Assembly (NCBI GenBank): GCA_951406725.2
Contig: OX597816.1
Location: 109,306,001-109,370,000 of the forward strand
From: Octopus vulgaris
Lineage: Eukaryota
Direction: 5' to 3'
DNA: 64,000 bases
Below are positions 9,886-22,600 of the stretch, in pieces. Positions within the stretch are counted from its first letter, which is position 1. Every line of letters starts with the position of its first letter. A model generated the notes under the pieces. It searched no databases, was not told the DNA's origin, and saw only the letters and a list, made by a program, of their open reading frames with translations. The position numbers and the translations under genes are program-made.

Positions 9886-9990
9886 TATCCACGGACGCAC
9901 GTTTCGAAATCAAGTTTTTAGGAAAGCATGAGAATTAAATATTAAATAATTCTACGTTACCCAAACTTCTTTTCTCTTCAGCGCAGAATA
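9886..9990 (-). ncRNA. Type I hammerhead ribozyme with long stem II (array unit 1)
   Basis: Minus strand: UAUUCUGCG-CUGAAGA-[GAAA..AAGUUU..AGAAUUA/UAAUUCU..AAACUU..UUUC]-GAA-ACGUGCGU-C|CGUGGAUA. Full core, GUC triplet (C17 at 9894), stem I pairs, self-complementary stem III. Confidence 0.88.
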
Positions 9991-10480
9991 CTATAATCAT
10001 AAGTGATTATATATTGAATTTTGAGATACTAGAAGGCACCAACTCAACTCAGTATCAGAGCGAGCTAGAATCCGCAACTAGTATCACCAAACTCAACGTG
10101 TGAATGAAAGGATTGTGTCACCAGCCCCTTCCCACCCGCGTGTAGCCAAAACAAGATGCTATGGTCATCTACTGAGATAAAATATGGTTATCCGTAATAA
10201 TGAAGGGTGAAATTAATTAATTTGGAATAATTATCAATTACACCAAGTAGTCTTCGGCATGTAAAAGCCTCATTCGAGGAAAATTTAAGTAATACTAAGC
10301 AATAAAGGGTTTAGCAACGAATTGCCTTACCACAGACCGAATTTAGAAATAGCAGTCAAAGAGTTATAGCTATTTCTTCTACTAAAAAGGAGATCTCAGT
10401 AAAAAACACAGCAATTGGAAGGCAGACACAAACAGGTAAGAGAGAATGAATTGACGGCAATCTATCATACAATTTTAAGT

Positions 10481-10585
10481 TATCCACGGACGCACGTTTC
10501 GAAATCAAGTTTTTAGGAAAGCATGAGAATTAAATATTAAATAATTCTACGTTACCCAAACTTCTTTTCTCTTCAGCGCAGAATA
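10481..10585 (-). ncRNA. Type I hammerhead ribozyme (array unit 2)
   Basis: Identical to the unit 1 motif; C17 at 10489. Confidence 0.88.
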
Positions 10586-11075
10586 CTATAATCATAAGTG
10601 ATTATATATTGAATTTTGAGATACTAGAAGGCACCAACTCAACTCAGTATCAGAGCGAGCTAGAATCCGCAACTAGTATCACCAAACTCAACGTGTGAAT
10701 GAAAGGATTGTGTCACCAGCCCCTTCCCACCCGCGTGTAGCCAAAACAAGGTGCTATGGTCATCTACTGAGATAAAATATGGTTATCCGTAATAATGAAG
10801 GGTGAAATTAATTAATTTGGAATAATTATCAATTACACCAAGTAGTCTTCGGCATGTAAAAGCCTCATTCGAGGAAAATTTAAGTAATACTAAGCAATAA
10901 AGGGTTTAGCAACGAATTGCCTTACCACAGACCGAATTTAGAAATAGCAGTCAAAGAGTTATAGCTATTTCTTCTACTAAAAAGGAGATCTCAGTAAAAA
11001 ACACAGCAATTGGAAGGCAGACACAAACAGGTAAGAGAGAATGAATTGACGGCAATCTATCATACAATTTTAAGT

Positions 11076-11180
11076 TATCCACGGACGCACGTTTCGAAAT
11101 CAAGTTTTTAGGAAAGCATGAGAATTAAATATTAAATAATTCTACGTTACCCAAACTTCTTTTCTCTTCAGCGCAGAATA
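11076..11180 (-). ncRNA. Type I hammerhead ribozyme (array unit 3)
   Basis: Identical motif; C17 at 11084. Confidence 0.88.
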
Positions 11181-11829
11181 CTATAATCATAAGTGATTAT
11201 ATATTGAATTTTGAGATACTAGAAGGCACCAACTCAACTCAGTATCAGAGCGAGCTAGAATCCGCAACTAGTATCACCAAACTCAACGTGTGAATGAAAG
11301 GATTGTGTCACCAGCCCCTTCCCACCCGCGTGTAGCCAAAACAAGATGCTATGGTCATCTGCTGAGATAAAATATGGTTATCCGTAATAATGAAGGGTGA
11401 AATTAATTAATTTGGAATAATTATCAATTACACCAAGTAGTCTTCGGCATGTAAAAGCCTCATTCGAGGAAAATTTAAGTAATACTAAGCAATAAAGGGT
11501 TTAGCAACGAATTGCCTTACCACAGACCGAATTTAGAAATAGCAGTCAAAGAGTTATAGCTATTTCTTCTACTAAAAAGGGAGATCTCAGTAAAAAACAC
11601 AGCAATTGGAAGGCAGACACAAACAGGTAAGAGAGAATGAATTGACGGCAATATATCATACAATTTTAAGTTATCCACGGACGCACGGGAAGGGGCTGGT
11701 GACACAATCCTTTCATTCACACGTTGAGTTTGGTGATACTAGTTGCGGATTCTAGCTCGCTCTGATACTGAGTTGAGTTGGTGCCTTCTAGTATCTCAAA
11801 ATTCAATATATAATCACTTATGATTATAG

Positions 11830-19586: not shown

Positions 19587-20151
19587 AAATTATCGTATGA
19601 AAAAAATAGAAAAAAAGGGGATAGCGAAAAAAGGGGAAAAAACAAACGTTCAAAAAAACAAAAAAATAATAATCGTATGAAAAAACTAGATAAGTAAGCG
19701 ATAGGGGCAGAAAAGACGGGGCAAACGGAAAAGGGAAAGAAAGAAGGGAAGCAGAGAGAGGGGGAGGCAAAAAAAGGGGGTGCAGGCAGAGGAAACGGAG
19801 TATGGACATCCAGAGAGGGAAGAAAGACGGAAAGGAGAACAAAAATTCAGGAAAATGTGGGAAGCATGAAATGAATGTAAAAAAAGTGGTAATATAAGAG
19901 AAAATAAAAATACAACAAACGGGACAGTTTATGCGAACAAGTTCAAGGTTGAAAGTTCAAGGTGAGAAATGTGTAGACGTCGTGGTATATTTTTTAAGGA
20001 TTTCACATCAATGCAAAGTCACTTTGATCCGCGAAAGAGAGGTGCAGCCAATGGTAAGTATCCAAGAGGTAAAGAAAATCCAAGGTAGAGGTAAGTGTTG
20101 ATAGTGGTATTGGTAGAATATAGGATGAAAGTGAGACCACGTGAGCGCATA

Positions 20152-20856
20152 ATATATAACGGGAAGCTTTATGAAAATAAACAAAAGACGAAGGCAGGTG
20201 GAAAACAAACGAACAATTGTATTAGTATGGCGCTCAGGAAATATAAATAAAACAAGTCTTTAACGTTTCGAGCCTACGCTCTTCAACAGAAAGATACACA
20301 GAGAGAGAAAAACACAGAAAGAAGGAGAGAAAAAAATGCGTGCAGTAGCTAACGAATCAACATGGCGATCTGATTTCGGCCAGAGGTCAAAGATCAAACA
20401 TGAGACGCGAGAGCGAAATAAGGGGAGATAATAGGGTTGATAAAAGGGTTGAGGGACCAGCTAAAAGTGCGTGGGAGGGGTCTGGATGTGTGTATGTATA
20501 GGGTTGGTGTATGTATTAGTATGTATAAGGGTGTGTGTGTGTGTGTGTGTGTATGAGAGAGTATTAGTGCGTAAGATTGGTCTGGACGTGCGTATGTATG
20601 GGGTTGGTGTATGTATTAGTATGTATTAGTATGTATTAGTACGTATTGGTATGTATAGGTGTGTGTGTGTGTGTGAGAGAGAGTATAAGTGCGTATGCGG
20701 GGTCTGGACGTGTGTATGTATAGGGTTGGTGTAAGTATTAGTATGTACTGGTATGTATTAGTACGTATTAGTATGTATTAGTTGGTGTGTGTATTAGTAT
20801 GGCACATCATATGTGATGTGATGTGTAAAGTCATGTGGTGTAGTGAGGAGAAGAGG
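20152..20856 (-). repeat. 5' pseudo-LTR of the PLE
   Basis: Direct repeat of 15661-16370. Confidence 0.95.
20257..20294 (-). ncRNA. Minimal hammerhead ribozyme variant in the 5' pLTR
   Basis: Identical to 15766-15803. Confidence 0.75.
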
Positions 20857-21136
20857 ATATATATATTATTTATATATTATATATATATATATATATATAT
20901 ATATATATATATATATTATATATATATATATATATATATATATATATATATATATATATATATATATATATATATATATATATATATATATATATATATA
21001 TATATATATATATATATATATATATATATATATATATATATATATATATATATATATATATATATATATATATATATATATATATATATTATATATATAT
21101 ATATATATATATATATAGACATATATATATTTATAT
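20857..21136. repeat. (AT)n microsatellite
   Basis: Direct reading. Confidence 0.98.
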
Positions 21137-21689
21137 GAGAGTATGATAGAAGAAGGCTAACTCTTCCTTCCGAAGAAAAAAAAAATTCAAATTGGATCAT
21201 GTTAACACAAAAAATTATTTACATCAAAAAGGTGCCTTTTTTCTACGAAAATCCCTATTTTATACGATGTTTTGACTGCTGTGTCGCCATTTTTCGGTGT
21301 ATTTCACTTAAAGAGAATAACAAGCTACATACTGCCAAATGTTTACTTTTAAAAAGTTCTAATTCTAAAGGGTCTAAACAAACCGCAACGCCGGGCGATA
21401 CTGCTAGTATATATATATATATAATTGTAAATTTTCTTTAGAAAAGCATAGGAAGCATGCAAGTGCTCGATTCAAACTCGTGACGCTAGACAAGTGCAAG
21501 AGATACTGTGAAGATTATGTTTGGTGTATACATATAGATTTAATATGAAGGAATTTTCTAAAACATATATTAATACATTCAGAATATAAAGATAAAGAAA
21601 TATAGAAATATACATGAATGTTAAAAATATGCAAAGACAAATATATATATATATATATATATATATATATATATATATATATAGATACA

Positions 21690-22600
21690 TTAATATAATA
21701 AATATAGATAAGAATAATGAAAGACATTTCTTTTAAAAATTCAAAATTAATTATAGAATGGAGGGAGTAATAGATGTTTAAAAGGAGTTTTTGGTACCAT
21801 ATCTAAAGGAAATTATGTACTCCGACGATCGTTTCTAGAATTCATTCAAAGAGTACAAGTCATTCTTACGATTTCCTTTCAAGAAATGCCCCCATCATCA
21901 GGGAAAAAGAGAAGAATAGTGTTTGTGCCAGAAATGTATTAAATGGTTTTGCAAGTATTAATTAATTTTTGTTTCATATAAGAATCATACGAGTTATGGA
22001 AATTATTAAGAGGGCTGATGGGAGTTTTTATTTTTTTTTTATTTTTTAAAAATTACTACTAACTGGCAATATATTGCTGTACTATAGAAAATGCTACTAT
22101 GCGGGTTCGAATTTAAATTTACTCTTGAACGTTGAATAATATATATGGTTACACAAATGAATTTAGCTTCAGAAAATTTATTTAAAACAGTGGAACCAAA
22201 TATACGAAGGATTATATACGATTCTTTTATACAAATTCGACATCAGCCGGCAAGGGTATCATATGGTAGGGTCTCATCTATGATCGACCAAGACAATGTA
22301 TAATTGATGTTTTGTAATTTTAAATTTTGTATATAGCTTGCTAACGCCGTAGAGTTTCTATGTTTTAACTTATTAAAGGAATTTACGTATAATTTGTCTT
22401 TTCCTAGATTTAGAGTGAGTTACCCCATCCGCATGTTTGGGCATAGAGGAAGCATGTTTATTAAAAGTTCTAGTATTAGGATTATAAAGTTTAATAGGGT
22501 GAACGACAGGTCTACTTACAGGTTTATAACCTAATGAGGGGGTTGTTTTAATCCTATCAGTGTTACCATGAGGTGTTAAATTAGCTAATTTAGTTTTATA
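21690..22600 (-). mobile_element. Degenerate truncated PLE (GIY-YIG C-terminus + HHR) between (AT)n tracts
   Basis: 22380->22145 reads [21 protein letters not shown]...WSIIDETLPYDTLAG*CRICIKESYIIL...LNKFSE; HHR downstream at 21820-21905. Confidence 0.75.
21820..21905 (-). ncRNA. Type I hammerhead ribozyme with long stem II
   Basis: UUCC-CUGAUGA-UGGG...UCUA-GAA-ACGAUCGU-C|GGAG: canonical core, perfect palindromic stem III, GUC site at 21824; stem II partly decayed. Confidence 0.78.

What the first reader, a model, noticed from the sequence alone, without database searches (positions are those of the whole stretch)
9886..21905. Family of type I hammerheads with greatly extended stem II shared by the array and two GIY-YIG PLE remnants
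Seen: three unrelated-sequence HHRs (9886-9990 and its copies, 13531-13624, 21820-21905) share one architecture. Each has a canonical core, an 8-nt palindromic stem III (ACGUGCGU, ACACGUGU, ACGAUCGU: covariation that preserves the palindrome) and a 55-70-nt interrupted stem II instead of the usual short hairpin. The last two lie 3' of CxLC-type GIY-YIG domains. Established: palindromic stem III in PLE HHRs is associated with dimer-dependent cleavage. Inference: this is a distinct structural subclass that short-stem descriptors would miss, and the long stem II may be a protein-binding or tertiary-contact module.
Basis: partly seen in the sequence, partly recalled or inferred. Interest (0 to 1): 0.75.

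Follow-up and report, generated by a model that had tools for sequence, protein, structure and literature searches.

The report
Long-armed hammerhead ribozymes in Hydra retroelements
Tens of thousands of jumping-gene copies in this animal genome carry a hammerhead self-cutting RNA motif whose side arm is two to four times longer than in published relatives; the arm is kept folded but changes freely in length and sequence, so it is likely a tolerated extension of a known ribozyme rather than a new module, and cutting itself is still untested.

Summary
Observation confirmed. Six intact type I hammerhead cores lie at the named places, with stem II arms of 69, 55 and 59 nt and self-complementary 8-nt stem III; 0 of 100 shuffles give any. 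Two sit in 3' UTRs of Hydra-clade Penelope-like elements; one is in a 595-nt non-coding retrozyme array. Genome-wide, about 33,700 motifs above control have 39-70-nt arms, 7,800 have 70-100 nt and 13,100 have 8-38 nt. It is not one subclass with a shared module: the three arms share no sequence, lengths run from 9 to 100 nt, and one lineage with about 90% identical 3' flanks spans 21 to 39 nt (75 nt in relatives). The published descriptor (26 nt at most) and Rfam miss them. Copies joined at the predicted cut hint at cleavage in vivo, but the palindrome confounds this. A weak excess of unpaired bases at bp 6-7 leaves a tertiary dock open. The scan noted long-stem-II hammerheads before, in this and another genome. 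New variant of a known kind.

The parts
9697..11687 (-). Family 1 retrozyme array: three full 595-nt units (9697-10291, 10292-10886, 10887-11481) and a 5'-truncated fourth (11482-11687), beside (TA)n; no PLE coding homology
   Evidence: (D16, D19)
11687..12233 (+). Inverted arm of the same insertion, with a fourth hammerhead copy (11833-11932)
   Evidence: (I1-I3)
9888..9987 (-). Family 1 hammerhead: core 9981-9975, stem II 9974-9906 (69 nt), stem III 9902-9895, predicted cut after C17 at 9894, 6-bp stem I
10483..10582 (-). Family 1 hammerhead, copy 2 (C3 10576, C17 10489)
11078..11177 (-). Family 1 hammerhead, copy 3 (C3 11171, C17 11084)
13295..14667 (-). Family 2: 5'-truncated young Hydra-clade PLE between (TA)n tracts, 99.3% identical to a near-full-length copy (L121)
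14211..14666 (-). Family 2 GIY-YIG endonuclease domain with C-x-x-C, E, N, C-x-H and no CCHH; stop about 600 nt before the ribozyme
13538..13617 (-). Family 2 hammerhead: core 13614-13608, stem II 13607-13553 (55 nt), stem III 13549-13542, predicted cut after A17 at 13541
21719..22596 (-). Family 3: old, broken Hydra-clade PLE remnant; linker piece, then the C-terminal half of the endonuclease (22395-22100) with GIY and YIG deleted
21820..21905 (-). Family 3 hammerhead: core 21901-21895, stem II 21894-21836 (59 nt, decayed), stem III 21832-21825, predicted cut after C17 at 21824

Best explanation
These are type I hammerhead motifs in the 3' ends of Hydra-clade Penelope-like elements and of a non-coding repeat likely carried by such elements; they are predicted to cut their own RNA as dimers paired through the palindromic stem III, and their long stem II is likely a tolerated outgrowth of the normal arm, kept only as a folded hairpin. 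Shown: intact cores, palindromic stem III, position 3' of Hydra-type endonucleases in at least six lineages, pairing with compensatory changes inside two lineages, free change of length inside lineages, no shared sequence between lineages. Inferred: the arm grows or shrinks at its tip by local duplication, microsatellite slippage and deletion; selection removes versions that misfold into the core and may favour the extra stability (median -11.9 against -3.3 kcal/mol) in an AU-rich transcript; the first 4-5 bp supply the helix that stacks on stem III as in every hammerhead. From the literature, not tested here: dimer cleavage and help from the element's own protein.
For: (cores, 0 of 100 shuffles); 16,851 vs 70, 17,634 vs 735, 13,921 vs 830 and 8,529 vs 727 matches against reversed-pattern controls, so lengths 8-100 nt are all populated; clusters fall in every 10-nt bin from 0 to 100; the 21-nt (L286) and 39-nt (L164) forms share 217 of 242 aligned 3'-flank bases (part of that a TA tail); the 25-nt tandem family shares 159 of 210 with family 1 (69 nt); one lineage aligned at 17, 19, 21, 38, 39, 44, 68 and 75 nt with insertions at the tip; a 9-nt tandem duplication (21 to 30 nt), a trinucleotide expansion (55 to 80 nt) and a 35-nt deletion (85 to 50 nt, 1 of 9 copies); 7 of 12 basal pairs change on both sides in 46 family-2 relatives, 0 of 500 shuffles reach the score; 11 independent Watson-Crick switches on a flank tree; 3 of 8 apical pairs do so in a second lineage; a model of lineage 2 scores its own members 102-104 bits, families 1 and 3 only 20 and 18; only AU-rich k-mers are shared; 12 distinct 5' junctions at the family-2 cut site against 3 at a control site.
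Against: Most sampled lineages cluster at 50-69 nt (30 of 62 cluster-bins), which pure drift does not obviously predict, although sampling was weighted to that range by my own patterns. Unpaired probability peaks at arm positions 6-7 (27 of 40 clusters, Wilcoxon p 0.017, chosen after looking), where loop 2 sits in canonical hammerheads. The apical helix of lineage 2 holds an invariant 5-nt stretch with no compensatory change, which could be sequence constraint. Family 3 shows no covariation above shuffles (67 of 500 reach the score). Basal helices of long arms are not weaker than those of short arms (p 0.47), so a simple compensation model fails. Only 10 of 100 long motifs had a Hydra endonuclease within 900 nt upstream; for the rest the link is inferred. 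Cleavage is not shown.
Confidence: 0.63

Rival explanations
1. The arm is a canonical 4-5-bp helix II whose loop 2 has become an internal loop closed by a distal cap hairpin; the internal loop would dock on the internal loop of stem I and speed cleavage, and the cap would only close it.
For: Unpaired probability 0.05-0.2 at positions 2-4, 0.40-0.47 at 6-7 and 0.18-0.27 at 9-11 (27 of 40 and 21 of 28 clusters at two cut-offs, p 0.017 and 0.013). Family 1 and its 25-nt relative keep the same purine mismatches at positions 5-6 although the distal part differs. Stem I continues past an internal loop in lineage 2 (read by eye).
Against: The test was post hoc and rests on predicted folds; a second rise beyond position 13 is as high. 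Loop sequences differ between lineages; U at 1.7 occurs in 20 of 41 long and 9 of 17 short clusters, near the AU background. Lineage 2 has only variable single mismatches there. A published PLE minimal hammerhead showed no hidden tertiary contact in one test (PMC4209133 supplement legend).
Confidence: 0.2
2. The distal arm is a binding site for the element's RT-endonuclease protein or a host double-stranded-RNA factor, a separate module.
For: The Anolis PLE hammerhead cleaves only with its protein (PMC11167929 passages). Distal pairing is selected: distal part alone z below -2 in 12 of 37 clusters against 1 of 37 flanks; an invariant stretch in lineage 2.
Against: No sequence or length shared between lineages; closely related elements spread with arms of 16-25 nt; a young, abundant Hydra family has a 31-nt arm.
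Confidence: 0.09
3. The motifs are former ribozymes disabled by insertions in stem II and now carried passively.
For: No cleavage shown; whole-motif minimum-energy folds of monomers 2 and 3 do not form the hammerhead; 8 of 9 Xenopus retrozyme dimers did not cleave in one study (bioRxiv 10.64898/2026.07.22.740005).
Against: Core, palindrome and stem I pairing are kept across dozens of unrelated families; young expanding families carry long arms; compensatory changes; junctions at the predicted cut.
Confidence: 0.08

Closest known systems
Hammerheads of Hydra-clade Penelope-like elements (Craig et al. 2021, PMC8557442; read: passages, section 11, supplement parts 1-2 with Files S1 and S2, passages on Hydra-1_Obim)
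   Same: Type I topology in the 3' end of an RT plus C-terminal GIY-YIG element with DKT, an R-W motif, no CCHH, C-x-x-C and C-x-H around E and N, insertion into (TA)n; an octopus member is listed.
   Different: All 26 Hydra rows of File S2 have stem II plus loop of at most 24 nt and mostly 9-10-nt stem III; here arms reach 39-100 nt and stem III is mostly an 8-nt palindrome. In the same file the two spike-moss PLE-X1 hammerheads have arms of about 50 nt, marked as deviating, so long arms in PLE hammerheads have a precedent.
Minimal and palindromic-helix-III hammerheads of metazoan PLEs (Cervera and de la Pena 2014, PMC4209133; read: parts 1-2 of 4 of the text, supplement passages)
   Same: Palindromic helix III, short helix I, frequent extra base at the start of helix II, predicted dimer action, high sequence variety per genome; helix II already called larger than usual (7-8 bp).
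   Different: Their descriptor allows 3-7 bp and a 3-10-nt loop; arms here carry 15-25 predicted pairs in an interrupted hairpin.
Animal non-LTR retrozymes (Cervera and de la Pena 2020, PMC7229834, passages only, supplement not readable; Li et al. 2026 bioRxiv 10.64898/2026.07.22.740005, parts 1-3 of 5)
   Same: Family 1 is a non-coding tandem repeat with one type I hammerhead per unit, dispersed at many loci, with the tandem plus inverted layout of PLE insertions.
   Different: 595-nt unit with a 69-nt arm; no autonomous partner identified here; circular RNA not shown.
Rfam RF00163 Hammerhead_1
   Same: Same core and topology.
   Different: 16.8 bits against a gathering score of 34, E 4.2, for 1 of 5 copies in 9700-14660; none among the 150 listed of 154 window-wide matches.

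Membership tests
Type I hammerhead ribozyme | Conserved core CUGANGA, GAA, A15.1-U16.1 pair, NUH cut site | tested here: met
   all six copies
Type I hammerhead ribozyme | Stems I, II, III with open stem I | tested here: met
   stem I only 3-6 contiguous bp; the window's family-3 stem II is decayed
Type I hammerhead ribozyme | G10.1-C11.1 pair | tested here: inconclusive
   present in families 1 and 2, U-A in family 3; first/last bases G-C in 8 of 41 long clusters, many having an extra unpaired base first
Type I hammerhead ribozyme | Self-cleavage at H17 | not testable with these tools
   indirect only: junctions at the site, confounded by the palindrome
Type I hammerhead ribozyme | Loop 1-loop 2 tertiary contact | tested here: inconclusive
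   weak unpaired peak at positions 6-7; no conserved loop bases
Dimer-type PLE hammerhead | Palindromic stem III kept across families | tested here: met
   72 of 120 strict, 96 of 120 with G-U, against about 16 expected from column shuffles; cofolding pairs the palindromes in all three
Hydra-clade PLE (families 2 and 3) | RT with DKT and R-W motif, C-terminal GIY-YIG | tested here: met
   family 2 copies L121 (888 aa) and L123; compared by eye with Hydra-1_Obim; family 3 RT seen only in pieces (L084)
Hydra-clade PLE (families 2 and 3) | No CCHH; C-x-x-C and C-x-H around E and N | tested here: met
Hydra-clade PLE (families 2 and 3) | CxCX5C linker | tested here: inconclusive
   present in family-3 relatives (L064, L079) and L367; degenerate in family 2
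Hydra-clade PLE (families 2 and 3) | Insertion into (TA)n | tested here: met
Hydra-clade PLE (families 2 and 3) | Placement in the Hydra clade on an RT tree | not tested
   no tree with published sequences was built; Pfam has no match for the family-2 protein
Non-LTR retrozyme (family 1) | Non-coding tandem units, each with a type I hammerhead, dispersed in the genome | tested here: met
   (1,879 candidates, 40 scored)
Non-LTR retrozyme (family 1) | Circular RNA intermediate | not testable with these tools
   no raw RNA reads offered
Proposed long-stem-II subclass | Shared length, sequence or motif in the extension across families | tested here: not met

The most novel reading that the evidence does not exclude
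In these elements loop 2 of the hammerhead has been turned into an internal loop at bp 5-7 that still docks on stem I, with a freely evolving cap hairpin beyond it; this would be an undescribed natural hammerhead architecture, present in about 40,000 copies and dozens of families in one genome, and it would mean that animal hammerhead counts from short-stem descriptors miss the larger share in some lineages.
Probability: 0.2. Interest if true: 0.68.

Novelty: new variant of a known kind. Interest (0 to 1): 0.42.

Why it matters
Hammerheads in Penelope-like elements are known, but in this genome long-armed forms outnumber short-armed forms with the same 8-nt stem III about three to one, and the published descriptor and Rfam miss them. 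Surveys of retrozymes and PLE ribozymes therefore undercount them. The natural series of arms from 17 to 75 nt in one lineage is a ready-made set for asking what the periphery of a dimer-type hammerhead needs, and the junctions at the predicted cut offer a genomic way to ask whether PLE hammerheads cleave in vivo, which is an open point (no reads ending at the site were found for the Anolis element, PMC11167929).

Tried and rejected
Rfam search of the whole window gave only microsatellite noise among the 150 rows listed of 154. Clustering by 600-nt flanks chained unrelated families through neighbouring repeats and was replaced by 45-nt flanks. Sequencing runs: no RNA holder listed; only contigs, guessed to be RNA. 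Four were laid on family 2; one contig spans the cut site; contigs cannot show ends, so this is not used either way. A metagenome scan for the long-arm pattern with one palindrome returned at least 117 stretches; 5 had stem I of 3 bp or more and none closed a convincing stem II, so they were treated as chance. Compensation for a weak basal helix was rejected (p 0.47). U1.7 enrichment was not found. A cut-site hot spot for family 1 was not found (2 junctions; 0 fold-backs). The palindrome control 130 nt downstream (0 matches) is invalid because it lies outside the short arm of these insertions. A short-to-long link suggested by a shared start for L201 and L380 was not supported by flanks. Naiad membership was rejected (endonuclease is C-terminal, no CCHH). 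Literature: searches for hammerhead + octopus + Penelope, hammerhead + cephalopod, 'long stem II', 'extended stem II' and searches found no paper describing long-arm hammerheads in these elements. Lunse et al. 2017 and Arkhipova et al. 2017 are not held, so I saw only citations of them; they and the unreadable supplement of PMC7229834 may hold long-arm examples. Motif positions in the full-length element at 16308-19589 were read by eye, not by script.
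Full report
1. The observation. A descriptor scan of both strands allowing stem II up to 150 nt found six hammerhead cores with a self-complementary 8-nt stem III: four copies of family 1 (C3 at 9981, 10576, 11171 on minus, 11839 on plus; arm 69 nt), family 2 (13614, minus; 55 nt) and family 3 (21901, minus; 59 nt). 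None appeared in 100 block-wise dinucleotide shuffles. Arms 1 and 2 fold as one interrupted hairpin (z -2.5 and -1.7); the window's copy of arm 3 does not (z +0.9). Rfam gives Hammerhead_1 16.8 bits, cut-off 34, for 1 of the 5 copies in 9700-14660.

2. The hosts. The window lies in a 2.8-Gb genome, likely an octopus (inferred from size, repeat content and likeness to Hydra-1_Obim; not tested). Family 1 is a 595-nt unit in three full tandem copies, a partial copy and an inverted arm, with 1,879 candidates genome-wide of which 40 were scored at 98-100% identity. It has no match to PLE proteins, so it fits an animal non-LTR retrozyme. Family 2 is a 5'-truncated copy (13295-14667) of a young family (1,773 candidates, 40 scored near 100%). 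A near-full copy has an 888-residue frame with DKT, an R-W motif in a second copy, and an endonuclease lacking CCHH with C-x-x-C and C-x-H around E and N. These are the marks of the Hydra clade (PMC8557442 section 11). Family 3 is an older family (96 candidates, 40 scored, relatives 69-89% identical over the longer matches); the window copy has lost GIY and YIG and keeps the C-terminal half.

3. How common the long arm is. Exact patterns of core, gap and 8-nt stem III gave 16,851 matches against 70 for the reversed control (40-70 nt, G first), 17,634 against 735 (39-69 nt, other first base), 13,921 against 830 (8-38 nt) and 8,529 against 727 (70-100 nt). A core can match more than one range, so the sums are approximate. 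Among the 120 loci picked by pattern alone, the four inner bases of stem III are a strict palindrome in 72 and a palindrome with G-U in 96; column shuffles give about 16. The fetched loci held 246 distinct motifs in 63 clusters; these come mostly from the start of contig 1 and are weighted to long arms by my patterns. A Hydra-type endonuclease lay within 900 nt upstream of 10 of 100 long motifs, and the Neptune-type protein upstream of none. With longer distances, at least six lineages link to Hydra-type endonucleases at 0.2-2.4 kb. Most copies are short, and some 3' UTRs exceed 2 kb, so the link for the other lineages is inferred.

4. Is the arm under selection? In 46 relatives of family 2, 7 of 12 basal pairs change on both sides, 89% of cells pair, 0 of 500 shuffles reach the covariation score, and slid structures fall to 34-48%. 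On a tree from the flanks this is 11 independent switches, and 3 of 7 variable pairs meet a strict test that 111 of 3,220 other column pairs meet. The apical helix of that lineage has no compensatory change. In a second lineage of 32, 3 of 8 apical pairs change on both sides (7 switches over 13 pairs). Family 3 (12 copies) shows nothing above shuffles. Across 37 clusters, whole arms have z below -2 in 16, distal parts in 12, and flanks in 1. The structures were drawn from these sequences, which inflates percent paired.

5. Is it a distinct module? A covariance model of lineage 2 scores its members at 102-104 bits and families 1 and 3 at 20 and 18. Shared k-mers are AU-rich only. Cluster lengths fill every 10-nt bin from 0 to 100, with 30 of 62 entries at 50-69 nt. 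One lineage aligns at 17, 19, 21, 38, 39, 44, 68 and 75 nt with the additions at the tip; its 21-nt and 39-nt forms share 217 of 242 aligned 3'-flank bases. Family 1 has a tandem relative with a 25-nt arm (159 of 210 bases downstream) that keeps the same purine mismatches at positions 5-6. Visible routes are a 9-nt tandem duplication, a trinucleotide expansion from 55 to 80 nt and a 35-nt deletion. The direction of change is not shown; published Hydra hammerheads are all short (26 rows, at most 24 nt), which suggests short is ancestral. Long arms are more stable overall (median -11.9 against -3.3 kcal/mol) but their basal helices are no weaker (p 0.47). One hint favours a tertiary dock: unpaired probability peaks at positions 6-7 in 27 of 40 clusters (p 0.017, post hoc), though it rises as high again beyond position 13.

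6. Does it cut? Family 2 gave 17 matches against 6 at a site 33 nt downstream; after removing duplicates and small indels by eye this is 12 against 3. Symmetric head-to-head junctions numbered 13 at the family-2 site (5 with a centre of 4 nt or less, 8 keeping the palindrome) and 16 in a sister family (6 with 5 nt or less, 4 of these open to a 4-nt microhomology). Controls gave 1, 0, 1 and 8, none with a centre of 5 nt or less; the 8 show that other near-palindromes also seed fold-backs. Family 1 gave 2 junctions and 0 fold-backs. Short non-templated centres are what a reverse transcriptase running off a cut 5' end would leave, but deletion inside a palindrome can mimic some. This is a hint, not proof.

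7. Mechanism. Most likely (0.63) the RNA is cut at H17 when two copies pair through the stem III palindrome, as published for PLE hammerheads (PMC4209133; PMC6765202 passages), perhaps with help from the element's protein (PMC11167929 passages). Stem II needs only its first few pairs, and the rest is a hairpin free to change as long as it folds on itself. Rivals: an internal-loop dock (0.20), a protein-binding arm (0.09), dead motifs (0.08).

8. Novelty. Hammerheads in Hydra elements, palindromic stem III and retrozymes as PLE passengers are published. Arms of about 50 nt occur in two spike-moss PLE-X1 elements. I found no paper on long arms in animal PLEs, but two key papers were not held. 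The 2014 descriptor allows at most about 26 nt. The scan has noted the same feature on other DNA in this and another genome; those notes are unchecked and are not counted as support. Verdict: new variant of a known kind, interest 0.42.

Noticed in passing
window 15766-20835 (-): A full-length PLE of another clade lies between families 2 and 3: 1,093-aa open frame (16308-19589) with DKG, a Neptune-type zinc linker and CCHH (read by eye), flanked by two near-identical pLTRs, each with a minimal hammerhead (about 15766-15803 and 20257-20294) that has U at core position 6, a 13-nt stem II and a 4-nt stem III.
   Followed up: partly
window 12360-12725 (+): Decayed piece of a further Hydra-type endonuclease, 61% identical over 49 aa to a young family.
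   Followed up: partly
L338, L347, L373, L374: A young, abundant Hydra family (150 of 150 scored copies identical over 140 aa) has a hammerhead core with C in place of U4, a 31-nt arm and a 9-nt stem III; L374 shows the ribozyme on both sides of the open frame.
   Followed up: partly
L362, L364, L367, L372: A Hydra family with 955-960-aa frames has an AU-rich 3' UTR of 2.0-2.4 kb before a hammerhead with an 85-86-nt arm.
   Followed up: partly
L522, L526, L528, L530, L535-L538, L547-L551: Short head-to-head insertions of family 2 whose two arms both begin at or beside the predicted cut, or meet at the stem III palindrome; the short arm ends about 80 nt and the long arm about 246 nt after the cut.
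   Followed up: partly
L121 about residues 480-740: Family 2 and the L367 family carry long low-complexity insertions between RT and endonuclease, and family 2 has lost the CxCX5C linker yet is young and abundant.
   Followed up: no
L010, L138, L167, L206: Families with 10- and 12-nt palindromic stem III, long enough that they may work as monomers.
   Followed up: no
window 25786-27182 (+): Broken non-LTR retrotransposon with RT C-terminus and a restriction-like endonuclease (possibly Hero or NeSL type; label recalled); other notes of the scan report a rearranged hammerhead in such elements.
   Followed up: no
window 35944-36053: Perfect 110-nt palindrome centred on (TA)n; the Rfam microRNA matches there are below gathering scores.
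   Followed up: no
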